Shown: positions 995 to 26,461 of the stretch, in pieces | How positions within the stretch are numbered: position 1 is the stretch's first letter | How the letters are laid out: the number at the start of each line of letters is the position of its first letter | Origin: Candidatus Roizmanbacteria bacterium RIFCSPHIGHO2_02_FULL_40_13b | GTDB taxonomy: Bacteria; Patescibacteriota; Microgenomatia; UBA1406; HO2-37-13b | Reading direction: 5' to 3' | NCBI GenBank assembly: GCA_001789445.1 | Contig: MFZQ01000010.1 | Span: forward strand, 1 to 43,045 | Length of the DNA stretch: 43,045 nt | Program-made: the position numbers and the translations under genes | Notes under the pieces: model-generated | What the model saw: the letters and a program-made list of their open reading frames with translations, nothing else | What the model was told of the DNA's origin: nothing | Databases searched by the model: none

Positions 995-1027
995 TGTCAT
1001 CCCGAATTTATTTCGGGATCTAAATAT

Positions 1028-1620: not shown

Positions 1621-1772
1621 CGTCATCCCGAGCGCAGCGAGGGATCCTATAAAGGTGTCATTCCCACGAAGGTGGGAATCTATACAGATAGATCCCCTGC
1701 CGGCCGGCAGGCAGGCCGATCAGGTCGGGGATGACAACAGAAGGGAGATCCTGAAACAAGTTCAGGATGACA
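1621..1772. repeat. Cluster of four YGTC-tagged REP-like palindromes (two forward, two reverse), one carrying a nested 20-bp palindrome
   Basis: CGTCATCCCGAGCGCAGCGAGGGATCC (1621-1647); TGTCATTCCCACGAAGGTGGGAATCTA (1656-1682); TAGATCC[insert]CCGATCAGGTCGGGGATGACA (1689-1736); GAGATCCTGAAACAAGTTCAGGATGACA (1745-1772). Confidence 0.9.
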
Positions 1773-1788
1773 GGAAATTATTTACCTT

Positions 1789-3531: not shown

Positions 3532-3569
3532 CATGGCGGAGAAGGTCATTAATAGAATCCTTCAGTATC

Positions 3570-4352: not shown

Positions 4353-4398
4353 ATTTTGATTATATACCCCACAGTATTCAAATAGTAAGGGTATAAAG

Positions 4399-7300: not shown

Positions 7301-8184
7301 GCCATGAGGGAGTTCATTACGAATTTTGTTGCTTCTTCAGACACCATTTCCCGCGCTTTATCTGCTGAAACTGCAACTTTTCCCTTTGCAACAGCCGCTT
7401 CATCTGGATTCATTAGTTTTCTAACTTCCTCTTGATAATGCCTAGCAAACTCTTCGGGGTCACGTATTGTATCAAACCACTCGAGGTCCTTCGTACTCAT
7501 TCGGTCCTCAAGTCTGGTTTTCAGAGTTGCTATATCTTCTTCTGATCGAGACGGCCGCCTTTGTCTTTCTTCCTTCTCTCTTGGTCGTTCTGGCGGCGGA
7601 ACATCTGCCTCTGCCATTTGGGTGAGTTTTTCTATGGCCTTTTCGGCTTCTTCAACATGCCATTTATCTTCTCTTCTTTGTCCAAGCTCAAGTCTTAATT
7701 TTGCATCCTTAACCTTGTTTATTAGCTTACTCGCGATTGCTTTACCTATTCGTTTATCAAGTCCAGTTCTATGTGCTACATATATTCCAATTTCAGCAAT
7801 TGCAGCATCTATCCCCAAAGCTCCCTCTGCAACACGTCCTAAAATTGGAACAATATCCTTGTAATGATTGTCTATGAAGTCTTCAACATGTAGGGCCTCA
7901 ATTGCTTCGCGTATTTTAGGAGGAAATTTTTTATCTACTTCCTCTATTGTTTCAGATTCGCCTCTCTCTGCCGCTTCCTCTTTAATTTTTTCAGTGATTT
8001 TTTGGATATTTTTTAGAACAGCCTTTGCGGCTTTTTTGTCTGGATCATCTTCGGGAACATCACGCCTTGCAAGCTTTGCGGCTGCTTGCTTTAGTAATTT
8101 CTTGAGCCACTCCCATAACTCAACCCCCTTTTTGTCTTTCGGAATAATTCCATTCTCTGGACTGGTTGTATCAGTTTCGACCAT
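4399..8184 (-). CDS. Very large (~1260 aa) charged, probably helical hypothetical protein with one C-terminal TM segment
   Basis: Long uninterrupted ORF; first ATG at 8184 (MVETD); only hydrophobic stretch is YLPAFILALIALGVISA near the C-terminus; no family recognised. Confidence 0.75.
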   Translation of the reverse strand: MVETDTTSPENGIIPKDKKGVELWEWLKKLLKQAAAKLARRDVPEDDPDKKAAKAVLKNIQKITEKIKEEAAERGESETIEEVDKKFPPKIREAIEALHVEDFIDNHYKDIVPILGRVAEGALGIDAAIAEIGIYVAHRTGLDKRIGKAIASKLINKVKDAKLRLELGQRREDKWHVEEAEKAIEKLTQMAEADVPPPERPREKEERQRRPSRSEEDIATLKTRLEDRMSTKDLEWFDTIRDPEEFARHYQEEVRKLMNPDEAAVAKGKVAVSADKAREMVSEEATKFVMNSLMAIYSPILDEEPREFFEKQAQNAGNFQDNPQNAAQVFSTMLNGLKEQSKIKSADMSLEPDVRKSLKEKQFRRLEKRKSVVLNDQSGQLEEAVLAATELGETDISDFAEYLREVLETGQGTIEFGHNFKLLTTLGPKEGREGPESFFKQIGGYAEGHFTADRIDTAFRLPYNDVVQASKQKFQSSYARLFLENGWQKDPRMLERFLESMPAAERRVKDELREQFGEETPEWAINWAFHMGRTMYFGLDFGFHEMVSWADPNLKYDGSSTLTGSGYMRGYFDMFETAKMTNTISKDKHLAEAVWLPYTIDMTKVKYDSTEWTKIGRARWNDSFAMGRMGFADSFLDGQKQFIDLGNITKVGGWGTNTGWRVREGYNTWLMPEFKGNTEDKLDIDPKGPDGDRLKFVNSWKRVENIGIPIVENFMQQYIINKTGDMPGKTNPPEFVEAVQSLGDFFFDRYFSDGGGTVNDMGRQLLDPDLQTKEALRKYIGEILTKDVYIGSRQDRLIKILNHVSTVMTFEQLPAHFITMEKQRMTEYGVTLFSQVQGDFLAKEGGSGHEKDAKERADKALANLIYVQEKLRIDASAQMEKIQDTPHKNLYGDLDSLKSSVMGGKGVMVDEKYIRDILETRFAKDKDMDEAERKKLIQDTVEVYATIKKQIVKPPDMDDIRRNKALAGLETKDKKRFEAVEKKVTEGKVKSRAAWWSSALTENVFGHSVSQPSVAMKFINVAAAGPDIVKRDAEQAADCAETLHTRTTELYHVMKEGAKAARDKGPQAGYEPLAKWIGSLKQPIQKQLNSEIAYMVDFRAAQLINMFFKNDDDANKWWKLQPQRYWANFKQKSVSGRFIDPGEPIWSWNKDTEAGWAEYLYRDGKLKRDPPKGLGVKYTEVDNNLTRRVLQRIPIIGRGIKGKKMFVRDHINTFTYRDLKSWSNSDWREVLKHNYLPAFILALIALGVISAKKGSEDIKVT

Positions 8185-8353
8185 AGGCACAAGAATGGAA
8201 CTGATAAGCAAAAAGGAGAGGGATGCGCGCCAGAGGCACTCGTTTTGAAGATATCCAATGCTGAGGATTACGTTTGATGTAATTCATCCTACAAACATTG
8301 TAATGTAATTGATTATAGCACACAAGCGCGGTGAATACTATAAGAAGAACTAT

Positions 8354-8414
8354 TGTCATTCCCGCGAAGGCGGGAATCTATTTGAATAGATCCCCGATCA
8401 GGTCGGGGATGACA
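8354..8414. repeat. REPIN-like inverted doublet of the TGTC-tagged palindrome
   Basis: TGTCATTCCCGCGAAGGCGGGAATCTA, 6-nt spacer, TAGATCCCCGATCAGGTCGGGGATGACA. Confidence 0.9.
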
Positions 8415-8485
8415 AGAAATGAGATTTCATATTCTTTTCATAATTGATTTATATAATCCCGCTTCAGTTATAAATTTATACTGTT

Positions 8486-8704
8486 ATGAAAGGAAATTTT
8501 GTGTACGACAGGTTGGGCGAGTCGGTCATTGATGGCCGGCGCGCGGCCGGAATGACCCAAGAAGACTTATGTGGTCTGACTAGAATTGATCGAACATTCT
8601 TGGGTAAAATCGAGAATGGAAAAGCAAACCCCTCATTCAAAACAATGATGAAGATTTCTCGAGCGCTTAAGGTTAAGATGAGTGTGTTATTCCAAGGAAT
8701 CTGA
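8486..8704 (+). CDS. XRE/Cro-C1 family helix-turn-helix regulator
   Basis: RRAAGMTQEDL...IENGKANPSFKTMMKISRAL, a classic HTH_3 pattern. Confidence 0.85.
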   Translation: MKGNFVYDRLGESVIDGRRAAGMTQEDLCGLTRIDRTFLGKIENGKANPSFKTMMKISRALKVKMSVLFQGI

Positions 8705-9193
8705 AAAAAGTGAGAAGTCATCAACCGGTCCATCTTTGGTCTTTTTTTCGATAATAAGCTTTCGTTCTCGTCCTTCCCCTTCTGAAGTGGAGGTAAGATC
8801 GGGATGATTTTTACTAATATATTCGTGAATTAATTTGCGCTCATATGCCGAAAATGACTGAAGTGACGCTTGTCGATTTTCTTCTTTCACTCGTGTAGCC
8901 ACATTCTCTGCAATTCCTTCAACTCGTTCTTTTTGACGTTCTCGATAGTCACCAATATTGACTGCAATGTTGACTTTTTTTCCAAATTTCTTAAATAGAA
9001 TTGCTTCAAGAACTGTTTGTAAAGATGAAAGTGTTGCACCGAACTTTCCAATAAGCAGTGAACTATCTTCGCTTTCTTCAATGGTAACTAAATATACATC
9101 TCCCTCTTCTTTGGTAATTGTCGGTTCCATTGAAAATCCCATTTTTCCCAAAAGCTCGAGCGTAAGCGTCTTGATTACTTCTTGTTCTTCCAT
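8687..9193 (-). CDS. jag: Jag/KhpB (EloR) RNA-binding protein with KH and R3H domains
   Basis: LIGKFGATLSSLQ (KH), AYERKLIH and SEGEGRER (R3H); directly downstream of yidC. Confidence 0.9.
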   Translation of the reverse strand: MEEQEVIKTLTLELLGKMGFSMEPTITKEEGDVYLVTIEESEDSSLLIGKFGATLSSLQTVLEAILFKKFGKKVNIAVNIGDYRERQKERVEGIAENVATRVKEENRQASLQSFSAYERKLIHEYISKNHPDLTSTSEGEGRERKLIIEKKTKDGPVDDFSLFSDSLE

Positions 9194-9194
9194 A

Positions 9195-10001
9195 TTATTT
9201 TTTTGGAATTTTTACAAGTAATGATTTAAGCGGATTGCCTTTGTATTGAATGATGCTAAATATTGAGAAAACGTTCCAATAAAGGGAGAGTCCAGCAGGG
9301 AGAACATAGGCAAAATATCCAATCATGAGTGGGAAAATATACAGCATTTGTCCAGACATCATCGACTGCATATCGGTTGATTTTTCACCTTCTTTTTTGG
9401 GTTTGGGAGGAGTTTGGGACATAGTCACCTTGACTTGATAATATTGTAAAATCGCAGTGATGACGGGAATAGCCAAGTAGTGCAATCCATACTTTGGAAA
9501 GTTAGATGGGGCAATACCAATATTGAATCCAAAAAACCACGGATCAATTGTTGCTATTTTCAAAAATGGAATATATACAATCTTATTGACTGCAACTGCT
9601 ACTTTCGTAATTGGTTCACCCGCCAAAAAAATGTTAAGTGCCTGATATAGACCAATAAATACCGGAATTTGGACGAGCGCATAGAGACAACCTGCCGCTG
9701 GATTTACCCCCATTTCTTTATACAATTTCATTTGTTCTTCTTGAAGTTTTTTCTTATCGTCCTTGTGTTTTTCACCCAATATATCTAAATGTGGTTTCAT
9801 TTCTTGCATTTTTTTTGCCATGTCAATTTGTTGACGTGAAGCAGGGTTGAGAAGAAGTCGAATTGCAACCGTGAGTGCAATTATCGAAAATCCAAATGAT
9901 CCAGGTAATCCAATCGCGCTGAAAATGAAGTTGAAAAATAAGAGAACATTAATTGTTGGGACAATTAGAATTGCATTAAATAGGCCTGATGTAAGATCCA
10001 T
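9195..10001 (-). CDS. yidC: Membrane protein insertase YidC/Oxa1
   Basis: GFSIIALTVAIRLLL, EQMKLYKEMGVNPAAGCL, QIPVFIGLY and LPAGLSLYW motifs. Confidence 0.95.
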   Translation of the reverse strand: MDLTSGLFNAILIVPTINVLLFFNFIFSAIGLPGSFGFSIIALTVAIRLLLNPASRQQIDMAKKMQEMKPHLDILGEKHKDDKKKLQEEQMKLYKEMGVNPAAGCLYALVQIPVFIGLYQALNIFLAGEPITKVAVAVNKIVYIPFLKIATIDPWFFGFNIGIAPSNFPKYGLHYLAIPVITAILQYYQVKVTMSQTPPKPKKEGEKSTDMQSMMSGQMLYIFPLMIGYFAYVLPAGLSLYWNVFSIFSIIQYKGNPLKSLLVKIPKK

Positions 10002-10007
10002 AATATT

Positions 10008-10157
10008 TTATAGTTTGGTAGCAACAGCTAAGCGTACTCGCCCTTTTAACCTTCGACGGGCCAGTACTTTTTGACCACCCTTGGTTTGCATTCGGCTCAA
10101 AAACCCATGCTTTCGCAATCTTTTTAATTTTTTTGGCTGGTATGTCCGTTTTGTCAT
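10008..10157 (-). CDS. rpmH: 50S ribosomal protein bL34 (absent from the ORF track, 49 aa)
   Basis: Manual translation [49 protein letters not shown]; ATG overlaps the valS stop (ATGA). Confidence 0.97.
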
Positions 10158-12268
10158 AATTGTTCCTCCAGTATACTACGTTCTTCACCATTAAAAACGT
10201 TCCACAACGCTTCTGTAACAAATGGCATGAATGGATGAAGAAGAACGAGAGAGTCCAAATATACTTCTTCAAGTTTTTTCGTAAGAGTAATATTACCAGA
10301 TTGAGCCTCAACTTTCAACTGTTCAATGTAAAAATCAGCATATCGGTGCCAAATAAATTCGTATAAACTATTGAGAGCGCTTGAAAATCTGTACGCCTCC
10401 ATATCCTTCATTACTTGTTTTTTGAGAGTTTGGAATTCTTTTTCAAGATCCTCAATTGTCATTCTGGAGGGAACGGAGTGACCGATAGGATCTACTTGAG
10501 ATTCTATCGCTTGCGCTCCAGAATGACGTGTCATCATTAAAAACCGTCCCATATTCCAAATTTTATTCGCAAAATTCCGCATTGAGCGAACTTTGTCTTC
10601 AGAAAAAGAGATGTCATTTCCCTCACCCGTCCCAAAAATAAGTGCTGCCCGAAGCGCATCTGCCCCATATTTTTCAATCATAATCATTGGATTAACCACA
10701 TTTCCTCGACTTTTACTCATTTTTGCACCTTTACTGTCTCGAATCAAGCCATGTAAGAAAATCGTGTTAAAAGGAGTTTCGCCTGTCATGTAAATCCCAA
10801 GCATCATCATTCTACACACCCACCAGGGCAAAATATCATACCCTGTTTCCATGACAGACGTTGGATAAAAGTAATTAAAATAGTCTTCTCCGAGCGCTTT
10901 GAGTGTGGCTACCGGCCATTGTCCCGATGAAAACCATGTATCAAATGTATCTTCATCTTGAACTAGATTTGATTTTTTGCAGTGTATGCAAGAACTTGGT
11001 GCTTGACCATCTGTCACCGTCCACTCACTACAATCTTCACACTTCCATGCCGGAATCCGAATTCCCCACACAATTTGACGGGAAATATTCCAGTCATGAA
11101 AATTGGTGAGCCAATTAAGCGCATGTTTTTCAAACTTCTTAGGAACGATTACCGTCTCTTTCTTTTTAAGTGCTTCGAGGGCATTGTCTGCGAGCGGTTT
11201 CACCTTCACATACCATTGAGCAAGAGGAAGTGGCTCAAGCGTTTTGCCACACTTATAACATGTCTTCAAAACGAGTGTATGTTTCTTTGCTTCAAGCTTG
11301 AGATCTTCCTCCAAAAGAGCTCTAGCTGGGGCGACACGCATTCCATCATATTTCGTTCCTGTTCCATAGAGTTTTCCATCAAAACCGATCACCTGAATGC
11401 TTGGAAGATTGTGTTTTTTTCCAATCTCAAAATCATTAAAATCATGCGCTGGAGTGACTTTTACGGCGCCCGTTCCAAAGTCCATATCAACATATTCATC
11501 TGTAATGATTGGGATTTCTTTATTAATAACAGGAATTAATGCAATCTTACCGATTAGTGAGCTATATCGTTTATCTTTCGGATGAACCATAAGTGCAACA
11601 TCTCCAAACATCGTTTCTGGACGAGTAGTGGCAACTGTAATACTTCCACCTCCTTTTATGGAGTATTCTAGATGAAATAAGCCTCTTTCGACTTCAACTT
11701 CTTTATCAAGTACTTCAAGGTCAGAAAAGGAGGTTCCATCAAATGTGCAATAATTTACGAGTCGTTTTGAACGATAGATAAGTCCATCGTCGTGTAACTT
11801 TTTGAAAGTTTTGTACACAGTTGAAACGATTTTTTCATCAAGGGTAAAGAGAGTTTTACTCCAATCAAGACTAAATCCAAGTGCGCGAAGTTGAGTTTCC
11901 ATCGTCCCTCGATTTTTAATAACAAAATCCCAAATCATTTTGTAGAGTGTCTCACGATCGTAATCAAACCGACTTTTATCTTGTTTTTTTAGGTGTTTTT
12001 CAAATACAAATTGTGTTTCAAATCCAGCATGATCTGCCCCAGAAAGCCAAAATGTGGAGTATCCCCTGAGTTTTTTGAATCTAATCATAATATCTTCATA
12101 CGTATACATGGCGTGTCCCAAGTGAAGATCAGCATTCGCGTTTGGAGGAGGGAGAATTATGGTAAAGGGCTTTTTTTTGGGATCTATTTTTGCTTCAAAA
12201 TAGCCTTTTTTTTCCCAAAAATCATAAATCTTTTTTTCGTGGTCACTAGGAATAAATTTCGAGTCCAT
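10154..12268 (-). CDS. valS: Valine--tRNA ligase, short form lacking the C-terminal coiled-coil arm
   Basis: [13 protein letters not shown] (HIGH), [24 protein letters not shown] and KMSKS; probable start MDSKF at 12268. Confidence 0.97.
10457..10528. repeat. 72-bp YGTC-REP doublet inserted in frame in valS
   Basis: TGTCATTCTGGAG...CTCCAGAATGACG, exactly 24 codons ([24 protein letters not shown]); one half nearly matches 40581-40609. Confidence 0.9.
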
Positions 12269-12333
12269 ACTACGGGCAAATATATCAAAAAGTGGTTGAT
12301 ATTTCAATCTAAAAATACTAACCTGTTCATGGT

Positions 12334-14490
12334 ATGAATTGGATTACTCAAACATTGTGGTGGTATGTGTGCCTCTTGGGACTTGGACTCGTGTCCATAC
12401 CTTTTACAAAACGTGTTTTTGGAAAAAACTTTTTTGATTTTGGGTATTCATTTGCAAAAACGATCACGTTAATTTTTGTCACATACAGCGCCCTCACGCT
12501 GGGAGTCATGCGTATAGTTCCCTTCACACAAAGCGGTTTGCTTTTTATAGTTGGTGCCTTCGGGTTATTAAATATCTTGATTTTCCGACATAAAAAGAAG
12601 GAGAAAAAAAAAGGATCACCTCTAAATATGAACCAAATCGGTCTAATTGTGTTTGAAGAAGTCCTTTTTTTGGTTTGTTTATTTGTATGGGTTATCGTGC
12701 GGGGGCAGGAGCCATCTATTCATGGACTTGAAAAATTCATGGATTTTGGATTTATAAACTCAATCTTGCGAAGCACCTACTTCCCACCAAAAGATATGTG
12801 GCTTGCCGGGCACTCGATAAATTACTACTATTTTGGGCATTTAAGCGGGGCTGTACTTACTAAACTATCCAACATTCCTTCAAATTATACATACAACTTA
12901 ATTCTTGCCTCAATTTTTGCGCTCGGTGTAACACAAACATTTAGTCTCTGTTTCAATGTGATACACCAAATTCATAAAAAAATAAAAATATCATTTATTG
13001 CTGGTGTTATTGGAGCATTTTTACTCAATTTCGCCGGGAATTTACACACAATATATGCATTTACAGCTGGATATCAGGGAGATAAAGCTCCTGAATTTTG
13101 GAAAATACTCACTAAATTTACTCCACAATCGTATTGGTACCCAAATGCGACCCGTTTTATCCCCTTTACAATCCATGAATTTCCAATTTATTCATACGTA
13201 GTGGCCGATCTTCACGGTCATGTGTTTGATATTCCATTCGTACTATTGACACTTGCTGTGCTTTATATTCTTATAATAAACGGAATTCCCAAAAGACCCA
13301 TCTTCCACCATCCATTTTCTACCCTCTACCCTTACATCCCCACCCTCGCCCTCGCCTTTCTCTGCGCCGTTCATTACATGACAAATGCGTTTGACGGGCC
13401 TATATACATGCTCATTTCGATGGTTATTCTCTTATTCCTGTTAAAAGATCTTAAGAAGCTATTCGTGCATATTTTGGTCTTAGGAATTGGTTTTATTGCC
13501 TTCACTATTCCATTTGCAATAAATTTTGTGCCATTTGTATCTGGAATTGGCGTCAATTGTGCTCCAAAATTCCTTGTTCAATACGGAAAAATTGGTCCAT
13601 TTTTGTTTGAAAAAGGCAACTGTCAAACATCACAAGTATGGATGCTTGCTGTATTATGGGGATTTTTTATCTTTAATTTTGCGTTTTTTGTACTGAAACT
13701 TTTACATGAAAGAAAAAATGAGGGTTCAGCACAAACCAAAACTGATTACTTCATAATGATTCTTTTTATGGTGAGTACAATCCTGCTTATTGTTCCTGAA
13801 TTTTTCTATATAAAAGATATTTATCCTGCACACTTTAGAGCAAACACAATGTTCAAGCTTGGATATCAGGCATTCATGATGATGTCTGTAGCATCAACAT
13901 ACACATTTATTCGGTTAAAACAGGGAATACGAGTCAAAGATCCTATCTCAATAGTGTATCTTGTGCTATTTGCTCCTCTCTTTTTCCTAGTTGCAATTTA
14001 CCCAACATTTGCAATTGGTTCGTATTACGGCACTTTGAAAAAGACTCCCCAGCTCAACGGATCGCTGTGGGTGAACGATAGCTATCCCAACTACGTTCGC
14101 ATGATCGATTTCATGAACAAAAATGTTAGTGACCAGCCCACAATACTTGAGGCCCAAGGAGACTCGTATACCGACTTTAATGTAGTTTCAGCGTATACAG
14201 GGATACCTACTGTTGGAGGATGGTGGGTACATGAGTGGTTGTGGAGAGGAAGTGCGGAAGTGATTGGAAAACTTATCCCTGATATACAAAATATCTATGA
14301 AAGTGCCGACATGGACCTAACCAAGAACCTTATTAAGAAGTTCGATATCAAATACATTATCGTTGGACCAAATGAACACAAAAAATACACCAATTTAGAC
14401 GATAAAAAAATACGAAGTTTAGGTAAAGTTGTATTCGAAACAAAATCGGGAATAGATGTTCAAACTAGTTATATTGTAAAGATACTTTAA
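12334..14490 (+). CDS. DUF2298 (Chlor_Arch_YYY) polytopic membrane protein, probable GT-C-fold glycosyltransferase
   Basis: EKFMDFGFINS, PPKDMWLAG, INYYYFGH, IHEFP, DLHGH and RANTMFK motifs. Confidence 0.85.
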   Translation: MNWITQTLWWYVCLLGLGLVSIPFTKRVFGKNFFDFGYSFAKTITLIFVTYSALTLGVMRIVPFTQSGLLFIVGAFGLLNILIFRHKKKEKKKGSPLNMNQIGLIVFEEVLFLVCLFVWVIVRGQEPSIHGLEKFMDFGFINSILRSTYFPPKDMWLAGHSINYYYFGHLSGAVLTKLSNIPSNYTYNLILASIFALGVTQTFSLCFNVIHQIHKKIKISFIAGVIGAFLLNFAGNLHTIYAFTAGYQGDKAPEFWKILTKFTPQSYWYPNATRFIPFTIHEFPIYSYVVADLHGHVFDIPFVLLTLAVLYILIINGIPKRPIFHHPFSTLYPYIPTLALAFLCAVHYMTNAFDGPIYMLISMVILLFLLKDLKKLFVHILVLGIGFIAFTIPFAINFVPFVSGIGVNCAPKFLVQYGKIGPFLFEKGNCQTSQVWMLAVLWGFFIFNFAFFVLKLLHERKNEGSAQTKTDYFIMILFMVSTILLIVPEFFYIKDIYPAHFRANTMFKLGYQAFMMMSVASTYTFIRLKQGIRVKDPISIVYLVLFAPLFFLVAIYPTFAIGSYYGTLKKTPQLNGSLWVNDSYPNYVRMIDFMNKNVSDQPTILEAQGDSYTDFNVVSAYTGIPTVGGWWVHEWLWRGSAEVIGKLIPDIQNIYESADMDLTKNLIKKFDIKYIIVGPNEHKKYTNLDDKKIRSLGKVVFETKSGIDVQTSYIVKIL

Positions 14491-14519
14491 GGCTCTGCTA
14501 GGCTCCATTTAAATGGTAC

Positions 14520-14548
14520 TTGACAATTAAAATAAAGTCTGCTATTGT
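14520..14548 (+). promoter_or_regulatory. Sigma70-type promoter with no downstream ORF (candidate sRNA promoter)
   Basis: TTGACA (14520-14525), 17-nt spacer, TATTGT (14543-14548) preceded by TGC (extended -10). Confidence 0.6.
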
Positions 14549-14554
14549 TATCTA

Positions 14555-14640
14555 ATACTCCGAAGAAGCGGAGAGTTCCACGAAGAGCATTACTATACGT
14601 CGTGCCCCTTTTATACGAACGGTAGTGATGCTCTTTTTTA
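14555..14640 (+). ncRNA. Candidate ~85-nt small RNA with two hairpins ending in a U-tract
   Basis: CTCCG/CGGAG hairpin, then long stem AAGAGCATTACTA...TAGTGATGCTCTT followed by TTTT; own promoter upstream; no Rfam family recognised. Confidence 0.45.
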
Positions 14641-14650
14641 TTTTCTGTAG

Positions 14651-14803
14651 TTATAGTCTAAATGAGATGACCGGTACATGAAGATTTCTCTTTTTTAAGC
14701 TTGCAAATTGGTCACGTGCAAATATTCCTGCTTCTTGAACACTGTATGCCTTCTTAAAAATACCTGCATCAAATTTAAACCGCACTTGTATTTTGCTTTT
14801 CAC
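14651..14803 (-). CDS. Small basic protein, 50 aa (MKSKIQVRFKFDAGIFKKAYSVQEAGIFARDQFASLKKRNLHVPVISFRL)
   Basis: GTG start 9 nt downstream of a TTGACA-17-TACAAT promoter; the longer track ORF (14860) would start upstream of this promoter. Confidence 0.6.
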   Translation of the reverse strand: MKSKIQVRFKFDAGIFKKAYSVQEAGIFARDQFASLKKRNLHVPVISFRL

Positions 14804-14812
14804 AATAGGTGC

Positions 14813-14841
14813 ATTGTAAATCAACCTATATTCTTTGTCAA
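14813..14841 (-). promoter_or_regulatory. Near-consensus sigma70 promoter for the 50-aa ORF
   Basis: TTGACA (14841-14836), 17 nt, TACAAT (14818-14813). Confidence 0.75.
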
Positions 14842-14984
14842 GTCCTATAGAAATTATCATTCATGCTATAAGGCATCCTGTAATATGAGAGGTTATGTAT
14901 AGAGCTATACGAAAGCCCCTTTAATTCATTAATACCTTTGTGGATACTATGTGGACTGCAAAATTGTGAAGAAATTCGGATGTA

Positions 14985-15731
14985 TTATGAGGTTTTCTGG
15001 AATAAATCTATGCGTTCTGTCTTTATCCCATCTACTTCCCAGGCAGTAAATTGGTCAATCTGGCTTTTTTTAGTCACACCGTATACAAATACTAGAAACC
15101 CGAATGTTTTGAGGTCTTTAACGAAATTTTTAGTGGCAAATCGTGAATAGATAGTAATGCCGTCTACTGCAACTTTTTGAAACTTCTTTCGTAGGATATA
15201 TACGATGGCTCTTGAAAAAAATATAGATGTCAAAAGAAGTAATATCTTAACTACAAATCTTCTTGTAAAATCATACGTGTCTTTTGGATTGTGCGTGAGA
15301 CTATATATTCCATTAGGATAGGCTTCTTCGATTAAAAATAGTGTTTCAAGACTAAAACAGTCAATATAGAGCTTATTCTGAAATTTATTTCGTTTTAAAA
15401 AATCAACAAGCGCAGTAGTGCAACTTTCATCCTTAATATCTATATTAATAATCTTTTGATACTTATTTGCCAGTTGCATTACTTCGTACAGAGTGGATAT
15501 TCCCAAATGTTTTATTTCTGAATAGAGTAAGCTATCAATCCAAACTCGTTTTCCATTGATATATACCCCCCGATCATGATGAATTGCGATGACACCGTCT
15601 TTTGTAAGCCTAATATCTACCTCAACACCGTCAATATAGTCTTTGGAAAGCGATTGTTTGATCGTTTCACGTTTATTTTCAAAGACACCCGCTCCTCCCC
15701 CTCTGTGGGCTATAAATAATGTTTTATTCAT
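14985..15731 (-). CDS. Glycerophosphodiester phosphodiesterase (GDPD) family protein
   Basis: IAHRG, EN, VEVDIRLTKDG..IHHD and VDGIKT motifs. Confidence 0.9.
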   Translation of the reverse strand: MNKTLFIAHRGGGAGVFENKRETIKQSLSKDYIDGVEVDIRLTKDGVIAIHHDRGVYINGKRVWIDSLLYSEIKHLGISTLYEVMQLANKYQKIINIDIKDESCTTALVDFLKRNKFQNKLYIDCFSLETLFLIEEAYPNGIYSLTHNPKDTYDFTRRFVVKILLLLTSIFFSRAIVYILRKKFQKVAVDGITIYSRFATKNFVKDLKTFGFLVFVYGVTKKSQIDQFTAWEVDGIKTERIDLFQKTS

Positions 15732-15739
15732 ACGATGAT

Positions 15740-15761
15740 ATTGTTAAATTGTTAAATTGTT
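15740..15761. repeat. Octamer tandem repeat (ATTGTTAA) x ~2.7
   Basis: ATTGTTAA ATTGTTAA ATTGTT; reverse complement of the unit at 17680-17711. Confidence 0.6.
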
Positions 15762-15805
15762 TAAGCGAGAATTCCTATTATACGAACTATTTGGATACCT
15801 TATTC

Positions 15806-16150
15806 TTGTCATTCCCGCGAAGGCGGGAATCTATTTAATTTTCTCACTAATATCATCCCAATCAGGATTTTTCTCCTCTATGAGCCTAATTTTCCAGGCT
15901 CGGTTCCATTTCTTAAGTCTCTTTTCTCTGTAAATTGCATCTTCTGGTTTATCAAATATTTCAAAATAAACAAGATAGTGTACTCCATATTTTTTAGTGA
16001 ATCCTTCGATCAAGCTTTGTTTATGTTGCCACGTTCTTTTTTGAATATTATCTGTCATTCCAATATACAAGATTCCATTCTTTTTACTTGCTAGGATATA
16101 AGTATAATAGTTTTTGCTCATATGGATTCCCGCCTTCGCGGGAATGACAA
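15806..16150. mobile_element. Candidate 345-bp element: GIY-YIG nuclease gene bracketed by perfect 26-bp inverted REP-like repeats
   Basis: TTGTCATTCCCGCGAAGGCGGGAATC at 15806-15831 and its exact reverse complement at 16125-16150; mobility is inferred. Confidence 0.6.
15831..16121 (-). CDS. Stand-alone GIY-YIG nuclease (96 aa)
   Basis: YYTYILAS...LYIGMT...R..QHK...FTKKY...LVYFE...AIYREKRLKKWNRAWKIRLIEEKNPDW; start MSKNY at 16121, since the upstream extension is translated repeat DNA. Confidence 0.92.
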   Translation of the reverse strand: MSKNYYTYILASKKNGILYIGMTDNIQKRTWQHKQSLIEGFTKKYGVHYLVYFEIFDKPEDAIYREKRLKKWNRAWKIRLIEEKNPDWDDISEKIK

Positions 16151-16156
16151 ACATTA

Positions 16157-16236
16157 TAGATCCCGTCTCTATTCGTGGACCTAAGGCCTCCGCGAACCGG
16201 CGGTTCCCCTTGGGCGCAAAATACGGTATCAAGCGA
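16157..16236. repeat. 80-nt GC-rich hairpin element, copy A
   Basis: TAGATCCC...GGTATCAAGCGA with stems GATCCCGT/ACGGTATC, CCTAAGG/CCTTGGG and CCGC/GCGG; same length and similar ends as 20079-20158. Confidence 0.6.
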
Positions 16237-16243
16237 AAACATA

Positions 16244-17062
16244 CTATGTTAGTTTATTCAGCCTCTTTTTGATGTTTTGAAAATGGCCGATCATTTCGTC
16301 CTCAAAGCTTTTTGGCTTTGATTGATTGTAGTAATCTCCCCCCATTTTATAATCAAATATCTTTTTCTCCACTCCACCAGTTCGTAGTGATTGAACTGTT
16401 GCGAGGCTATATTTACGAAGCAACGTTAATCTGCCTTCCCGTTTAAATCGACGAATTGACACTCGCATTGAAACTTGCTTTACTATTTTAGTTTGGACAC
16501 CCATTTCTTTGGCTCTTCGTACAATCTCATGATCTTCAGCCATGAAAAGCTTCTCATTAAAACCTTCTAAATGATTGAAGAAGTTTCGTTCAAAAATCAT
16601 TCCGAATCCAAGTGATAGGGGGAGATTTGTAATTTGGGACGCATCAACAACCCAATTGAGCATATTAAAAAATGCTTTATCTTGGAAAAACCGTTCAATT
16701 GAAAAATATTGGGGTAAACACAATAAATATTTATATATAAGTAAGTTTTTTTTGAGACGAGTAAGAAAAGATGGCAATATACGTATATCTGCATCAAAGA
16801 AAACGAGATATTCTCCTGTAGCCTGTTGTGCTCCTATATTACGTTGGTATGAAACGCTTCGCTTTTTTACAGAAATAAGTTTGAGTGGAATTTTGTCCTC
16901 GAAACTTCTCACAATCTGGGGAGTTTTATCTTCTGAATTACCATCAACAACTATGAGTTCGAAATCGCGCTCTTCTTGTTTCTCAATATCGCCCAAAAGC
17001 TTGGGCAACATTTTCTCTTCATTGAGGGTTGGGATAATGATGGTAAAAAATGGCGGTTTCAT
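16244..17062 (-). CDS. Family 2 glycosyltransferase
   Basis: IIIPTLNEE, VVDGNSEDKT, RNIGA, FFDAD and EDHE motifs. Confidence 0.92.
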   Translation of the reverse strand: MKPPFFTIIIPTLNEEKMLPKLLGDIEKQEERDFELIVVDGNSEDKTPQIVRSFEDKIPLKLISVKKRSVSYQRNIGAQQATGEYLVFFDADIRILPSFLTRLKKNLLIYKYLLCLPQYFSIERFFQDKAFFNMLNWVVDASQITNLPLSLGFGMIFERNFFNHLEGFNEKLFMAEDHEIVRRAKEMGVQTKIVKQVSMRVSIRRFKREGRLTLLRKYSLATVQSLRTGGVEKKIFDYKMGGDYYNQSKPKSFEDEMIGHFQNIKKRLNKLT

Positions 17063-17097
17063 AATACAATGTTCAATCTGCGTATATTATAATACTT

Positions 17098-18285
17098 ATG
17101 ATGAAGATTGCAATTTTCTCCGATGCGTTTTATCCGCAAGTTAATGGTGTGGTCACTCATATTTTGAATATCGTACCACTTGTTGCAAAAAAAGCAGAGG
17201 TTCACTTATTTGTACCCAACTTCAACAAACCATATCCCGAAAAAATTGAGAATTGCTTTATACATTATGTACCAAGTTTACCGCTCCCCGTTTACCCAGA
17301 TTTTCGCCTCACATCAATCTATTATCCAGGACTCATGGACAAAATTAAGAAAATCAATCCAGATATTATTCATGTTGAGGCACCAGCAACGCTGGGCTGG
17401 TGTGGAGTGATTATTGCCCAAAAATTGCATGTTCCGATTGTAGGAACATTTCATACCTATTTTACCGATCCAGGATTTTTGAGAATTATGAAGCTCGATA
17501 TTGTAGGTCTTGATAAAGCGAAGTGGTTTATCAATGCACTCTGGAAATACTCAAATTGGTTTTACAACAAGGCAGTTGTGACGATTGCCCCGACAAAATT
17601 GGTCGCAAATGATCTCATTAAGCATAAAATTAAGTCAAAAGTAGAAGTAATAAGCGTAGGTATCGATACAAAACCATATCAGCAATTTAACAATTTAACA
17701 ATTCAACAATTCAAAGAAAAATACATTCTAAGTTTGGGTCGGATTGCTCAAGGAAAATCGCTTGATATTTTGGTCAAAGCATTTGCGAAAGCGAGTAAGG
17801 ATGTGCCTGATGTACGACTCAAAATAGCTGGTGACGGCCCTATGCTTGCGGAACTTAAGAATTTGGTAAAAGAGCTCGATATTGAGGAAAAAGTTGACTT
17901 TATTGGGTTTTTACAGAGAGATGAAAAAGTGGCACTGTTTAAGAATGCTACGTGCTTTATTTCAACAAGTATTAGTGAAACATTCGGACTTACTTTTTTG
18001 GAGGCCATGAGTTGTGGAACTCCGGTAATTGGAGCACGTGCCGGAGGAAGCTATGAAATTATCAAAGATTATGGAATTACGTGTGAGGCAGAAGATATTG
18101 ATGCGTTCACAGAAGCGATCATACAAGTTTGTACGGATGAAAAACTGCATAGTGAGCTTTCAAAAAAGGCCCTTGAAGGGGTAAAACCGCATACTGTAGA
18201 AAAAACCGCCGAAAAATTGCTTGAACTTTACGCTTCAGTAAGTACTACTTCTTCTGCGCCACGTACATCTCCTCAACTTCCGTAA
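17098..18285 (+). CDS. Family 4 (GT-B) glycosyltransferase; start may be the second ATG at 17101
   Basis: IAIFSDAFYPQVNGV, GTFHT, LGRIAQGK and SETFGLTFLEAMSCGTPV. Confidence 0.92.
   Translation: MMKIAIFSDAFYPQVNGVVTHILNIVPLVAKKAEVHLFVPNFNKPYPEKIENCFIHYVPSLPLPVYPDFRLTSIYYPGLMDKIKKINPDIIHVEAPATLGWCGVIIAQKLHVPIVGTFHTYFTDPGFLRIMKLDIVGLDKAKWFINALWKYSNWFYNKAVVTIAPTKLVANDLIKHKIKSKVEVISVGIDTKPYQQFNNLTIQQFKEKYILSLGRIAQGKSLDILVKAFAKASKDVPDVRLKIAGDGPMLAELKNLVKELDIEEKVDFIGFLQRDEKVALFKNATCFISTSISETFGLTFLEAMSCGTPVIGARAGGSYEIIKDYGITCEAEDIDAFTEAIIQVCTDEKLHSELSKKALEGVKPHTVEKTAEKLLELYASVSTTSSAPRTSPQLP
17680..17711. repeat. Octamer tandem repeat (YAACAATT x4) inside the GT4 inter-domain linker
   Basis: CAGCAATT TAACAATT TAACAATT CAACAATT, translated as QQFNNLTIQQF. 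Confidence 0.65.
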
Positions 18286-20026
18286 GAGAGGTTGCGTCAG
18301 TTGGCCGCTTGTCTTCTCTAATCGCCTCAAGACGCGGGAAACGAAGTGCATATCCAGGTACATCTACCTCAAAGCCTCCTCCACTTTTTGTACGTTTGAG
18401 CAAACGTCCCGCGGTGTGAATTGATGATCGAGTGAGTTCATCTGCGCGAATTTCAAGCACTATTTCTGGTTTTACCCACACGTCCGGATTCATCAGGTCA
18501 TCACAGTCATAAAGCGCTGGTTTTGCGCTCGATTTGAGCACTTGAGATTTTTTGAACATAAGTCTCCATTCATCATCCGTCAGGCCTGTTCCAATCTTTG
18601 CAACAGTTACAAATTTATCTGTTTTTACATCATATACTCCCACAAGAATTGCGCCAATTCCAAACCCAGACCGTTTCCCCTTACCAAAATCGTAGCCCAT
18701 GACTAAACAATCGATCGTGTCATCTATTTTTGAGCTATAACTCCGTTTATATTTTATCCAGTTAAATCCACGAGCTCCAGGCTGATATGGACCGTCGTCT
18801 CGCTTGATCATAATTCCTTCCAAGCCCTTTGAGATTGCGTCTTCAAACTCGATCTCAATTTGATGAGAATTTTCCATTTTTTGTAGCGGCGAAATGAGAA
18901 TTGTATCAACTGCAACATCTCCTGATACTTTTATGGTGCTATTAAGTAATAATCGTCTCTCAATATGTGGTTTATGGATGAGATTTTGACCGTTTAAATA
19001 GAGAATATCGAACGCAAAAAGTCGAAGTGGAATCTCCACCACTTTTTCACTAATATTGTATTTTCTTTTTCGTTGAACTGTTTCTTGAAATGGTAAAAAT
19101 CCACCCGTTTGAATGTCATATCCAATTGCTTCCCCTTCAAGAATAATCTCCTTGGCCGTAACTTCTTTTTCTATTCCAGCAACAATATCCGGATACATGT
19201 GTGTCACGTCATCAAGTCCACGTGAATAGAGTTTTGTATCGTGCTTATTATGATGAATTTGTAGACGAAATCCATCATATTTGGGTTCAATTATTCCTCG
19301 TTCCACTTTTTCCATGATTTTCTCAACCGAAGCCAAGCGTTCTGCCTTCATCATAATAATGGGAGTGAAAAGAACGGGACCTATCTTTGAAAGTCCTTCA
19401 ATACCCTTTTCTTTTATTGTTTTTCCCAAGAGCCCGAGATCCGGGTTAACCTGATACACTTCCTCTATTTGTTTCCGAAGCGTTTTTCCTCCGGTGAGCA
19501 TCCATGAAAAAGCATCAAGAATCGTCATATCAGAAAAGCCCAAACGAAGTGTATTGGTTGGAATTCGAGCGATAAATCGACACGAAAGTGCATCGAGGCT
19601 CTGTGCAAGCTCGATAATGATCGAGGCCTTGATATCTTGTGAACCAGTGCCCGTAACTTGAGTAAGTTTATAGAGTTTTTCAAAAACTTCTTCAATCGAA
19701 AGGTCGCTCTCCCCAATTACTGTTATACTTCCTCGAAGCTCCTCAATTGTTGTCCCTAAATCACCATTTTTCTGGTACACCTGGTCAAATTGTTTTTTAT
19801 CAATTTGTAAGCCTGAAATAAATGCTTTTGTAAGAAGCTTTTCTGCCATACCAAAATCAGCTTTTTTATAGAGCGGAACAACGCTACCTTGCAATAAATA
19901 GAGTACTTTATCAATTTCCTGCGCGTTTGTCACAGTAAAAAGTTCCGCCAAAATCTCCGTCATTGTAAGCCGAGAAGGCGTTTTTTCTATCCGATCAAAA
20001 AATAAGGAAAGTTCGTGGAAAGTCAT
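18245..20026 (-). CDS. lig: ATP-dependent DNA ligase (archaeal/LigB type with N-terminal DNA-binding domain)
   Basis: EPKYDGFR (motif I), ILEGE, FDILY, EGIMIK, WIKYK and LRFPR. Confidence 0.95.
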   Translation of the reverse strand: MTFHELSLFFDRIEKTPSRLTMTEILAELFTVTNAQEIDKVLYLLQGSVVPLYKKADFGMAEKLLTKAFISGLQIDKKQFDQVYQKNGDLGTTIEELRGSITVIGESDLSIEEVFEKLYKLTQVTGTGSQDIKASIIIELAQSLDALSCRFIARIPTNTLRLGFSDMTILDAFSWMLTGGKTLRKQIEEVYQVNPDLGLLGKTIKEKGIEGLSKIGPVLFTPIIMMKAERLASVEKIMEKVERGIIEPKYDGFRLQIHHNKHDTKLYSRGLDDVTHMYPDIVAGIEKEVTAKEIILEGEAIGYDIQTGGFLPFQETVQRKRKYNISEKVVEIPLRLFAFDILYLNGQNLIHKPHIERRLLLNSTIKVSGDVAVDTILISPLQKMENSHQIEIEFEDAISKGLEGIMIKRDDGPYQPGARGFNWIKYKRSYSSKIDDTIDCLVMGYDFGKGKRSGFGIGAILVGVYDVKTDKFVTVAKIGTGLTDDEWRLMFKKSQVLKSSAKPALYDCDDLMNPDVWVKPEIVLEIRADELTRSSIHTAGRLLKRTKSGGGFEVDVPGYALRFPRLEAIREDKRPTDATSLTEVEEMYVAQKK

Positions 20027-26404: not shown

Positions 26405-26461
26405 GAGATCCTGAAATAGATTCAGGCCTTGGCTCTGGAGCCACAGGCTCAAGAGATGACA
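26405..26461. repeat. YGTC-REP copy (reverse) interrupted by a 29-bp insertion
   Basis: GAGATCCTGAAATAGATTCAGG[CCTTGGCTCTGGAGCCACAGGCTCAAGAG]ATGACA versus the intact copy at 1745-1772. Confidence 0.8.

What the first reader, a model, noticed from the sequence alone, without database searches (positions are those of the whole stretch)
15806..16150. GIY-YIG nuclease bracketed by YGTC-REP inverted repeats: candidate RAYT/REPIN-like system run by a different enzyme
Seen: a 96-aa stand-alone GIY-YIG gene fills the space between two perfect 26-bp inverted repeats (TTGTCATTCCCGCGAAGGCGGGAATC). Its TAG stop starts at the inner edge of one repeat and its ATG is 3 nt from the other. A TATAAT at 16158-16153 would start transcription inside the repeat, making the hairpin the 5' leader. 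About 12 more members of the YGTCAT...GATC/GAATC palindrome family occur at 1621-1772, 8354-8414, 10457-10528, 26405-26461 and 40540-40627. Established: GTAG-tagged REPs flank, and are processed by, RAYT HUH transposases. CGTC/TGTC-tagged REPs (akin to Neisseria dRS3 and Rickettsia palindromic elements) have, to my knowledge, no established dedicated mobiliser. Inference: the GIY-YIG protein recognises or cuts these hairpins and spreads them, so the cassette is the autonomous unit and the doublets are non-autonomous derivatives.
Basis: partly seen in the sequence, partly recalled or inferred. Interest (0 to 1): 0.88.

Follow-up and report, generated by a model that had tools for sequence, protein, structure and literature searches.

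The report
Ssn nuclease gene with hairpin repeats
A tiny GIY-YIG nuclease gene sits between two inverted copies of the genome's commonest hairpin repeat; this pairing is real, but it matches the Ssn single-stranded-DNA nuclease and repeat system published in 2025, so it is a new example of a known kind.

Summary
A 96-aa single-domain GIY-YIG gene (15831-16121, minus strand) is bracketed by perfect 26-nt inverted TTGTCATTCCCGCGAAGGCGGGAATC hairpins. The 0.86-Mb genome holds 50 copies of this hairpin and a second bracketed gene copy.

The core idea is already in print. Chenal et al. 2025 (PMC11893778) describe the Ssn family: about 94-aa GIY-YIG proteins flanked by NTS/SRM hairpins. These proteins bind the hairpin only as ssDNA and cut just upstream. 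That paper also draws the RAYT/REP analogy.

The window's repeats match the published NTS consensus at 26 of 28 positions. They also fit the published SRM search pattern.

I reproduced the association: 51 of 82 homologous genes from many phyla have GTC-tagged hairpins on both sides.

Three points go beyond what I read in that paper's main text:
- The two cassettes share homology only from tag to tag.
- Five relatives have the GT2 and GDPD genes abutting with no insert.
- Tandem half-hairpin arrays cluster beside ssn genes.

That Ssn spreads the repeats remains unproven. The common doublets pair two different hairpins, so they are not simple deletion derivatives of the cassette.

The parts
15831..16121 (-). 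ssn-like gene: a 96-aa single-domain GIY-YIG nuclease (stop codon included).
   Evidence: ORF. Pfam PF01541 E 4.3e-16 over residues 4-78. Y8, Y19, G21, H33, E66 and N85 are invariant, and R29 is in 99%, of the 96 aligned homologues.
15806..15831 (+). NTS/SRM-type hairpin with the tag TGTC on the + strand. It abuts the stop codon, and its tail C is the G of TAG.
   Evidence: Matches the published SRM pattern. 8-bp stem, 4-nt loop, -8.9 kcal/mol as ssDNA.
16125..16150 (-). The same hairpin in inverted orientation (tag on the - strand), 3 nt upstream of the ATG.
15804..16153 (.). The duplicated unit: the stretch shared with the second cassette at contig C21:34237-34579. Similarity starts 2-3 nt outside each TGTC tag and stops there.
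   Evidence: Pairwise alignment. Within the gene, 22 of 291 nt differ, giving 11 synonymous and 8 non-synonymous codon differences.
15732..15805 (.). Extra intergenic DNA between the cassette and the GDPD start. It has no counterpart in relatives.
   Evidence: The GT2-GDPD gap is 512 nt here, against -8 to +17 nt in 5 relatives.
16151..16243 (.). Extra intergenic DNA between the GT2 stop and the cassette. It holds the lone TATAAT at 16158-16153 (- strand).
   Evidence: No promoter pair was called there.
8354..8414 (.). Typical hairpin doublet: an ATTCCCGC-type hairpin, a 10-nt spacer, then an inverted ATCCCCGA-type hairpin, with tags outward.
   Evidence: Folds at -19.8 kcal/mol, z -5.7.
1621..1772 (.). 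Cluster of four tagged hairpins of different stem types.
10457..10528 (.). Long palindrome with two outward tags (ATTCTGGA type). This is the type that flanks the third Ssn paralogue on contig C14.
40540..40627 (.). Three tagged hairpins or hairpin remnants.
995..1024 (+).

Best explanation
This is a member of the Ssn system: a small single-domain GIY-YIG endonuclease gene embedded between two inverted copies of its cognate hairpin repeat (NTS/SRM, the CGTC-1 REP class).

By homology with the characterised enzymes (inferred for this protein): the protein binds the folded hairpin only when the DNA is single-stranded and only in one orientation. For binding it uses the hairpin sequence plus the C just after the stem. 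For cutting it uses the GTC just before the stem. It cleaves a few nucleotides 5' of the tag with Mg2+ and does not touch duplex DNA or RNA.

In this cassette the two hairpins face outward. The predicted cuts therefore fall just outside the unit, one on each strand.

Shown here by sequence: the cassette has been copied as a unit within this genome. It sits as an insertion in an otherwise tight GT2-GDPD gene junction. Its hairpin is the commonest repeat of the genome.

Inferred: the cassette entered this lineage, the hairpins expanded with it, and the nuclease acts on hairpin-bearing ssDNA (taken-up or replicative).
For: Protein. It is 96 aa and consists of one GIY-YIG domain. Y8, Y19, G21, H33, E66 and N85 are invariant, and R29 is present in 99%, of 96 aligned homologues. 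The characterised N. meningitidis SsnA is 94 aa, and its Y6A, Y17A and E64A mutants lose cutting (paper). Equating those residues with Y8, Y19 and E66 here is my positional inference.

Repeat. Both arms equal the published NTS consensus CGTCATTCCCGCGMAVGCGGGAATCYRG at 26 of 28 positions. They keep the GTC before the palindrome and the C after it, which the paper found critical. Both arms fit the paper's SRM search pattern, which has 46 hits in the genome against 0-5 in 10 shuffles.

Copy number. There are 50 copies within 4 mismatches of the 25-mer.

Second cassette. It is 92% identical in protein and has the same bracket. A third paralogue (46% identity) is bracketed by a different tagged hairpin type.

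Across phyla. Of 82 homologous genes in 80 loci, 51 have GTC-tagged hairpins within 100 nt on both sides, 25 on one side and 6 on neither. That is 127 of 164 flanks, against a background of 0.21 hairpins per 100 nt elsewhere in the same loci.

Among 30 relatives. All 6 genomes (own included) with 4 or more hits of GTCATYCCCG..CGGGRATC carry an Ssn homologue. The three same-genus genomes have 0 hits and only the distant paralogue type.

Insertion. The GT2-GDPD gap is 512 nt here. It is -8 to +17 nt in the 5 relatives' loci (of 11 fetched) that keep that adjacency.
Against: No direct comparison with N. meningitidis SsnA or CDD cd10448 was possible with these tools. Family membership of the protein therefore rests on size, domain, conserved residues and the cognate repeat.

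No biochemistry exists for this protein.

The geometry is not universal. Taking the nearest hairpin on each side, only 26 of 82 homologues show the tags-outward arrangement seen here. Another 9 are tags-inward and 16 are in direct orientation.

Six relatives carry an Ssn homologue but have no hit of the narrow hairpin pattern, and two have 1-3 hits without a homologue.

The ATCCCCGA-type hairpin (33 copies by the loose count) has no gene of its own in this genome.

The empty-site comparison is with distant relatives (GT2 43-49% identical by tblastn). It shows that the insert is derived, not how it arrived.
Confidence: 0.88

Rival explanations
1. Autonomous mobile element. The hairpin-ssn-hairpin cassette moves by means of its own nuclease, and the hairpin doublets are satellites mobilised in trans, as REPINs are by RAYTs.
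For: Two cassettes share similarity only from 2-3 nt outside one tag to 2-3 nt outside the other. That is where the published enzyme cuts ('a few nucleotides upstream').

The cassette is an insertion into a junction that is tight in 5 relatives.

Distribution among relatives is patchy, and hairpins and gene occur together.

The best homologue in the species-wide scan is 70% identical and comes from another phylum, while the best among 30 relatives is 56%.

Half-hairpin tandem arrays lie just outside terminal hairpins, at 0.26 per kb near ssn genes against 0.03 per kb elsewhere in the same loci.
Against: GIY-YIG nucleases hydrolyse DNA and, by established knowledge of the superfamily, form no covalent intermediate. 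The HUH cut-and-rejoin chemistry of RAYTs is therefore not available.

The published enzyme cuts only one strand orientation. Each strand of the cassette would thus be cut once, at its 5' border, which does not excise a unit.

The doublets are heterodimers of two hairpin types, while the cassettes are homodimers.

Only two copies define the borders, and 2-3 shared bases can be chance.

No empty-site variant was seen in the metagenome contigs laid.
Confidence: 0.3
2. Host-serving ssDNA restriction, as proposed for Neisseria. The nuclease trims incoming hairpin-bearing single strands during DNA uptake and so tunes recombination. The repeats are kept for that purpose and were spread by ordinary recombination or by another enzyme.
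For: This is the only in-vivo phenotype known for the family: a 5-fold rise in transformation with NTS-bearing DNA in the ssnA knockout (paper). This genome has a ComEC-type uptake channel match (PF03772, E 4.9e-41). The two copies differ at 11 synonymous and 8 non-synonymous codons, which is consistent with a protein under selection.
Against: The ComEC match contains 2 in-frame TAA stops that I did not resolve. Nothing here links the repeats to particular gene classes. A host-serving role does not explain why the gene itself sits between the repeats in so many phyla.
Confidence: 0.3
3. The tagged hairpins are mobilised by the genome's HUH tyrosine transposases, and the GIY-YIG gene is a passenger or a target.
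For: The genome has 4 matches to Y1_Tnp PF01797 (E 3e-7 to 8e-5; 3 of 4 over the curated cut-off) in ORFs of 230-248 aa carrying an HFHF-type motif.
Against: Each of the 4 is flanked by its own, different inverted hairpins. None has a GTCAT-tagged hairpin of 8 bp or more within 400 nt. Di Nocera 2013 likewise found no tyrosine transposase gene flanked by CGTC repeats (passage).
Confidence: 0.04
4. Chance or generic terminator hairpins that merely happen to flank a small gene.
For: The left arm followed by a T-rich tail is called terminator-like on the + strand.
Against: That call is on the strand opposite to all three genes. Hairpins are present on 127 of 164 flanks across phyla against 0.21 per 100 nt background. 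The bracket is identical at the second copy. The hairpin sequence co-varies with the Ssn variant in relatives.
Confidence: 0.01

Closest known systems
Ssn family (SsnA of Neisseria meningitidis, CDD cd10448 GIY-YIG_unchar_3) with NTS/SRM repeats. Chenal et al., Nat Commun 2025, PMC11893778.
   Same: Single-domain GIY-YIG protein of about 95 aa. The gene is flanked on both sides by hairpins. The repeat is almost letter-for-letter the NTS (26 of 28). There are many dispersed copies, and the host has a small, probably symbiotic-type genome.
   Different: The tag starts with T instead of C, and the tail is CTAT/CCAT instead of CYRG. The host is a 0.86-Mb genome, while the paper's main text does not mention Patescibacteria. 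This genome has two cassette copies plus a third paralogue with its own hairpin type. Activity is untested for this protein.
CGTC-1 REP family, equal to the dRS3 of Neisseria. Di Nocera et al. 2013, PMC3733652.
   Same: 8-bp stem beginning with AT, a 4-nt loop, and a CGTC tag that 'is changed to TGTC ... in many repeats'. There is a short unpaired tail, and most copies form tag-outward dimers that are often heterodimers (passages).
   Different: That paper found no dedicated enzyme. Here, and in the 2025 paper, the enzyme gene sits between two copies.
RAYT/REPIN systems (IS200/IS605-type HUH Y1 transposases with GTAG-tagged REPs).
   Same: A small gene bracketed by inverted copies of the genome's dispersed hairpin. 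The hairpins are mostly in doublets, and recognition is of a folded hairpin in ssDNA with a 5' tetranucleotide tag.
   Different: The enzyme fold and chemistry differ (GIY-YIG hydrolysis against HUH/Tyr covalent transfer), and so does the tag (TGTC against GTAG). For Ssn, cutting has been shown on one strand orientation only, and no strand transfer has been shown.
GIY-YIG homing endonucleases (I-TevI type).
   Same: The catalytic domain, and a gene sitting inside or next to its own recognition sequence.
   Different: There is no DNA-binding domain (96 aa in all). TIGR01453 scores 20.7 bits against a cut-off of 56.05. The characterised relatives use ssDNA rather than duplex DNA as substrate.
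UPF0213 protein BH0048 (PDB 1zg2).
   Same: A small stand-alone GIY-YIG protein. It is the only solved structure found by sequence (E 2.1e-4).
   Different: The similarity is weak, and I know of no link to repeats for it.

Membership tests
Ssn nucleases (cd10448) with SRM/NTS repeats | Single-domain GIY-YIG protein of about 94-100 aa with no extra domain. | tested here: met
   96 aa; PF01541 covers residues 4-78 and is the only Pfam hit.
Ssn nucleases (cd10448) with SRM/NTS repeats | Assignment to CDD cd10448, or blast E < 1e-10 to N. meningitidis SsnA (the paper's criteria). | not testable with these tools
NCBIfam has no model over its cut-off. PDB holds only 1zg2 at E 2e-4.
Ssn nucleases (cd10448) with SRM/NTS repeats | The catalytic Tyr of GIY, Tyr of YIG and Glu (Y6, Y17, E64 in Nm SsnA) are present. 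| tested here: met
   Y8, Y19 and E66 are invariant in 96 homologues. The correspondence to the Nm numbering is by position, not by alignment.
Ssn nucleases (cd10448) with SRM/NTS repeats | Gene flanked 5' and 3' by SRM hairpins. | tested here: met
   Both arms match the published pattern HGTCWYN(0-2)YYVSBRHN(0-5)WNVSBRGN(0-2)RNCYNB and match the NTS consensus at 26 of 28.
Ssn nucleases (cd10448) with SRM/NTS repeats | GTC directly 5' of the palindrome and C directly 3' of it (determinants of cutting and binding). | tested here: met
   TGTC-ATTCCCGC GAAG GCGGGAAT-C at both arms. The determinants are as stated in the paper.
Ssn nucleases (cd10448) with SRM/NTS repeats | Many dispersed copies of the cognate repeat in the same genome. 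| tested here: met
   50 copies within 4 mismatches. 73 hits of the narrower pattern against 0 for its backward-read control.
Ssn nucleases (cd10448) with SRM/NTS repeats | Binds and cuts only ssDNA, in one orientation, a few nt upstream of the repeat. | not testable with these tools
   This needs purified protein and oligonucleotide assays.
RAYT/REPIN | HUH motif plus catalytic Tyr (Y1 transposase, PF01797). | tested here: not met
   The protein hits only GIY-YIG. The genome's 4 Y1_Tnp matches lie elsewhere and have other flanking hairpins.
RAYT/REPIN | GTAG tag at the REP 5' end. | tested here: not met
   The tag is TGTC.
RAYT/REPIN | Dispersed repeats mostly as inverted doublets. | tested here: met
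   33 of 50 copies are in doublets, 27 of them with a 10-nt spacer.
GIY-YIG homing endonucleases (I-TevI type) | Nuclease domain joined to a DNA-binding domain; family model TIGR01453. | tested here: not met
   96 aa in all; TIGR01453 scores 20.7 bits against a cut-off of 56.05.
CGTC-1 REPs (Di Nocera 2013) | 8-bp stem starting with AT, 4-nt loop, CGTC/TGTC tag, short tail. | tested here: met
   the family is described in the passages.

The most novel reading that the evidence does not exclude
The hairpin-ssn-hairpin cassette is a self-propagating element of a kind not yet demonstrated. Ssn nicks at its two outer borders, one per strand, start copying of the unit and of stray hairpins into new sites by repair synthesis rather than by transposase chemistry. 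The tandem half-hairpin arrays that lie just outside terminal hairpins in 14 of 97 loci would be the scars of aborted rounds. This would make Ssn the missing mobiliser of all CGTC/TGTC-tagged REPs.
Probability: 0.25. Interest if true: 0.75.

Novelty: new member of a known kind. Interest (0 to 1): 0.3.

Why it matters
The window adds a clean, compact example of the Ssn nuclease-and-repeat pair in a very small genome. It has two near-identical cassettes and a third paralogue with its own hairpin type, which is convenient material for testing enzyme and repeat specificity.

It therefore opens no new question by itself.

Three things stay open and are made slightly more testable by this locus. One is whether the cassette moves as a unit. 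Another is whether Ssn cutting drives the spread of the hairpins. The third is what produces the half-hairpin tandem arrays next to cassettes.

Tried and rejected
Literature.
- GIY-YIG with 'repetitive extragenic palindromic': 0 papers.
- GIY-YIG with MITE and bacteria: 5 papers, none relevant by title or abstract.
- GIY-YIG/REPIN/RAYT/'REP sequences' with at least 2 terms: 61 papers, 20 listed. In the listing, no paper that holds 'RAYT' also holds 'GIY-YIG'.
- The Ssn paper surfaced only with GIY-YIG plus CGTC (8 papers) and with the hairpin query.
- A follow-up search for SsnA / 'single-stranded nuclease' / NTS / GIY-YIG from 2024 found 22 papers, 20 listed. By title, none is about Ssn mobility. 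One preprint (10.64898/2026.09.22.753630, passages only) merely uses SsnA-associated repeats as a benchmark class.
- I could not see the supplements of any paper. The Ssn paper's Supplementary Data 3-5 may already list Patescibacteria or multi-copy genomes.

Protein membership. NCBIfam gave only a sub-threshold intron-endonuclease hit, and PDB gave only 1zg2. I found no allowed way to obtain N. meningitidis SsnA for a direct comparison.

Promoter. The consensus scan called nothing at the TATAAT.

Population variants.
- The stretch 15200-16800 is held almost whole (0.92-0.97 of the sampled words) by 8 coded runs from 5 studies. One of these may be the source of the DNA.
- I laid the contigs of X2, X9, X10 and X11. 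Contigs break at both hairpins and none bridges GDPD to GT2 without the cassette.
- The listed joints skipping 282-295 nt have sides of 18-30 letters and 10-19 foreign letters between them. They are hairpin doublets from elsewhere in the metagenomes, not empty sites of this locus.
- Contigs cannot show rare variants, so this says nothing either way.

Deletion-derivative idea. I looked for doublets made of two ATTCCCGC-type hairpins in the genome and found none apart from the two cassettes.

Loose hairpin finder. The finder returns 314 calls, many of them spurious A+T-rich matches. Only its top families are used.
Full report
WHAT IS THERE

On the minus strand, an ORF from the ATG at 16121 to the TAG at 15833-15831 encodes 96 aa. 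It matches Pfam GIY-YIG (PF01541) over residues 4-78 at E 4.3e-16 and matches nothing else.

The ORF is bracketed by TTGTCATTCCCGCGAAGGCGGGAATC at 15806-15831 and its exact reverse complement at 16125-16150. The stop codon shares its G with the last base of one repeat. Three bases separate the ATG from the other repeat.

Each arm is itself a hairpin with an 8-bp stem and a 4-nt loop (-8.9 kcal/mol as ssDNA; z -4.4 and -3.6). The unpaired TGTC tags point away from the gene.

The neighbours are a GDPD-family gene (14985-15731) and a family-2 glycosyltransferase gene (16244-17062), both on the same strand as the small gene.

Only the promoter claim fails. TATAAT is there (16158-16153, minus strand), but no -35/-10 pair is called, and the second gene copy lacks it.

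THE GENOME

The window is part of a 59-kb contig of an 857,712-base, 32-contig genome with 39% G+C. The genome is rated 90% complete.

The 25-nt repeat occurs 50 times within 4 mismatches. Of these copies:
- 30 form doublets with an inverted hairpin of a second type (ATCCCCGA stem);
- 3 form doublets with other partners;
- 4 bracket two gene copies;
- 13 stand alone.
In 27 of the doublets the spacer is 10 nt.

A looser finder shows a family of TGTCAT-tagged hairpins with different stems: ATTCCCGC 57, ATCCCCGA 33, ATCCCGAA 14, and four types with 5-7 copies each.

tblastn finds a second gene copy at C21:34265-34552 with 92% protein identity and the same bracket. It finds a third paralogue at C14:101570-101851 (46% identity), bracketed by a different tagged hairpin type (ATCCTGGA/ATTCTGGA with long loops). 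Six more distant GIY-YIG hits lack such brackets.

IS IT GENERAL?

A scan of one genome per prokaryotic species found 579 relatives. The best 80 loci (49-70% identity) come from Acidobacteriota, Planctomycetota, many Proteobacteria, Ignavibacteria, Desulfobacterota and three named candidate-phyla groups.

I searched 100 nt on each side of the 82 genes in these loci for a GTC tag followed by a stem of at least 7 bp. Of the 82 genes, 51 have one on both sides, 25 on one side and 6 on neither. That is 127 of 164 flanks. Elsewhere in the same loci the density is 0.21 per 100 nt.

Orientation varies. Taking the nearest hairpin on each side, 26 genes show tags outward as here, 9 show tags inward (typical of Bradyrhizobium) and 16 show direct orientation. 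The remaining 31 have a hairpin on one side only or on neither side.

In 17 loci from 30 unnamed relatives of this genome, 16 show a tagged hairpin next to the gene (by eye). The stem sequence changes with the protein variant.

THIS IS PUBLISHED

The link was found only when I searched GIY-YIG together with CGTC.

Chenal et al. 2025 (PMC11893778) is the key paper. I read the abstract, Results parts 1-2, the section on the family, the Discussion and some Methods passages, but no supplements. The paper reports the following:
- It defines the Neisseria NTS as CGTCATTCCCGCGMAVGCGGGAATCYRG.
- Homologues of the 94-aa GIY-YIG protein SsnA (CDD cd10448) have an SRM nearby in 71% of cases and on both sides in 42%.
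- 81% of genomes with more than 200 SRMs carry the gene.
- SsnA binds the repeat only as ssDNA, only in one orientation, and cuts a few nucleotides upstream.
- The Y6A, Y17A and E64A mutants bind but do not cut.
- The C after the palindrome matters most for binding, and the three bases before it matter most for cutting.
- In N. meningitidis the enzyme lowers transformation by NTS-bearing DNA.

[quoted passage not shown] It compares the system with IS200/IS605, REPs and BIMEs, and it raises domestication and repeat expansion as a hypothesis.

Di Nocera et al. 2013 (PMC3733652; abstract and passages) had classed these hairpins as CGTC-1 REPs, equal to dRS3 in Neisseria, and had concluded that they lack a dedicated transposase.

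MEMBERSHIP

The window's arms match the NTS consensus at 26 of 28 positions. The first base is T instead of C and the last is T instead of G. Both arms fit the paper's degenerate SRM pattern, which has 46 hits in the genome against 0-5 in ten shuffles.

The protein has the size and single-domain build of Ssn. Y8, Y19, G21, H33, E66 and N85 are invariant, and R29 is present in 99%, of 96 aligned homologues.

I could not run CDD or compare directly with SsnA. NCBIfam and PDB gave nothing decisive. I therefore file the locus as an Ssn member at about 0.9, with that one criterion untested.

It is not a RAYT. It has no HUH/Tyr domain and no GTAG tag.

WHAT THIS LOCUS ADDS

(a) Unit borders. The two cassettes align from 2-3 nt outside one TGTC tag to 2-3 nt outside the other, and not beyond. 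In the gene, 22 of 291 nt differ, giving 11 synonymous and 8 non-synonymous codon differences. Almost all of these lie in the first third. The borders coincide with where the published enzyme would cut on each strand. With two copies this is only suggestive.

(b) Insertion. The GT2 protein was found in 25 of 31 genomes searched (own included), and 12 loci were fetched, one of them the window's own. In 5 of the 11 loci from relatives a GDPD gene follows GT2, with a gap of -8 to +17 nt. Here the gap is 512 nt, made of the 345-nt cassette plus 93 and 74 nt of other DNA. These relatives are distant (GT2 43-49% identical by tblastn).

(c) Co-occurrence among relatives. The pattern GTCATYCCCG..CGGGRATC has 73 hits here and then 55, 18, 12, 8 and 4 hits in five relatives, all of which carry an Ssn homologue. 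It has 3, 3 and 1 hits in three others, one of which carries a homologue. It has no hits in 22 genomes, six of which have a homologue, mostly of the distant paralogue type. The three same-genus genomes have no hit. Related genomes are not independent, so I give counts and no test.

(d) The best homologue in the species-wide scan is 70% identical and comes from a Terriglobia genome. The best among the 30 relatives is 56%. This suggests transfer between phyla.

(e) Half-hairpin arrays. Immediately outside some intact hairpins lie tandem repeats of a unit made of about 7 nt of flank plus the tag and the 5' stem arm. There are 2 to 7 units, the last being the start of the intact hairpin. Both sides of the C21 cassette have such an array. 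In the 97 homologue loci examined there are 17 arrays within 200 nt of ssn genes, in 14 loci (0.26 per kb). Elsewhere in those loci there are 12 (0.03 per kb). The word 'tandem' does not occur in the Ssn paper's main text.

(f) The genome also has four HUH Y1-transposase-like ORFs. Each is flanked by its own, different inverted hairpins and none by TGTC-tagged ones.

HOW IT MOST LIKELY WORKS

Shown for relatives and inferred here: the protein recognises the folded hairpin on a single strand and hydrolyses the strand a few bases 5' of TGTC.

Shown here by sequence: the cassette has been duplicated as a unit, is an insertion at this site, and travels with its hairpin family.

Inferred: the cassette is, or recently was, mobile, and the hairpins expanded after its arrival.

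Not shown: that Ssn cutting causes the spread. Three things argue against a RAYT-like mechanism:
- the hydrolytic chemistry of GIY-YIG enzymes (established knowledge of the superfamily);
- the single-orientation cutting, which gives one cut per strand;
- the doublets, which pair two different hairpins while the cassettes carry two identical ones.

A repair- or replication-based copying that starts from border nicks remains possible, and the half-hairpin arrays would fit it.

A host-serving role in trimming incoming ssDNA, as in Neisseria, is equally open. A ComEC-type match exists in the genome, though with two unresolved in-frame stops.

VERDICT

The mobiliser claim is still a hypothesis. The doublet-derivative and promoter details are not supported.

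This is a new member of a known kind, and the interest is modest (0.3). The most novel reading still open is a nick-primed, nuclease-driven spread of cassette and hairpins. I put it at about 0.25.

Noticed in passing
Contig C21:34200-34227 and 34570-34620 of the window's genome; C13:72039-72087; C18:15043-15072; loci L011, L058, L001 and L053 near their ssn genes: There are tandem arrays of half-hairpins, each unit being about 7 nt of flank plus the GTCAT tag and the 5' stem arm. They have 2-7 units, the last being the start of the intact hairpin, and lie immediately outside it. They are about 9-fold denser within 200 nt of ssn genes than elsewhere in the same loci (17 arrays in 65.8 kb against 12 in 439 kb). 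They are not mentioned in the Ssn paper's main text.
   Followed up: partly
Genome contigs C22:6651-6938, C23:15670-15909, C18:18990-19253 and C18:17234-17455 (loci L114-L117): There are four ORFs of 230-248 aa with weak Y1_Tnp (PF01797) matches and an HFHF-type motif. Each is bracketed by its own inverted hairpin that is unlike the TGTC-tagged family. They look like RAYT/TIRYT-type units living beside the Ssn system.
   Followed up: partly
Genome contigs C25:6551-6793, C32:10195-10470, C31:5351-5545 and C8:3773-3970: More distant small GIY-YIG ORFs (tblastn E 6e-10 to 6e-3) lie directly next to what look like tRNA gene ends. They have G+C-rich palindromes upstream that are not of the TGTC type. 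They may belong to a different GIY-YIG subfamily with its own context.
   Followed up: no
Contig C14:101480-101960 of the window's genome (locus L112): A third Ssn paralogue (46% identity) is bracketed by ATCCTGGA/ATTCTGGA-type tagged hairpins with long, variable loops. The same-genus relatives carry only this paralogue type, flanked by GTCATTCTGAG/GTCATCCTGAGCG hairpins (L101-L103).
   Followed up: partly
window 15794-15847 and 16118-16171: In four groundwater or soil metagenome contig sets, the two hairpin bins collect summed contig depths of 300 to 19,000, against about 3-7 for the flanks. The same hairpin is therefore shared by very many contigs, probably of many organisms, in those communities.
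   Followed up: no
Genome contig C13:28025-28771 (locus L093): A ComEC-type competence channel match (PF03772, E 4.9e-41) has two in-frame TAA stops inside the match. It could be a broken gene, two genes or an alignment artefact.
   Followed up: no
window 16160-16243: The 93 nt between the GT2 stop and the cassette hold a G+C-rich palindromic stretch (around CCGCCGGTTCGCGGAGG) and end in ...GACGGGATC, like the tail of another hairpin. This may be a remnant of an older repeat insertion.
   Followed up: no
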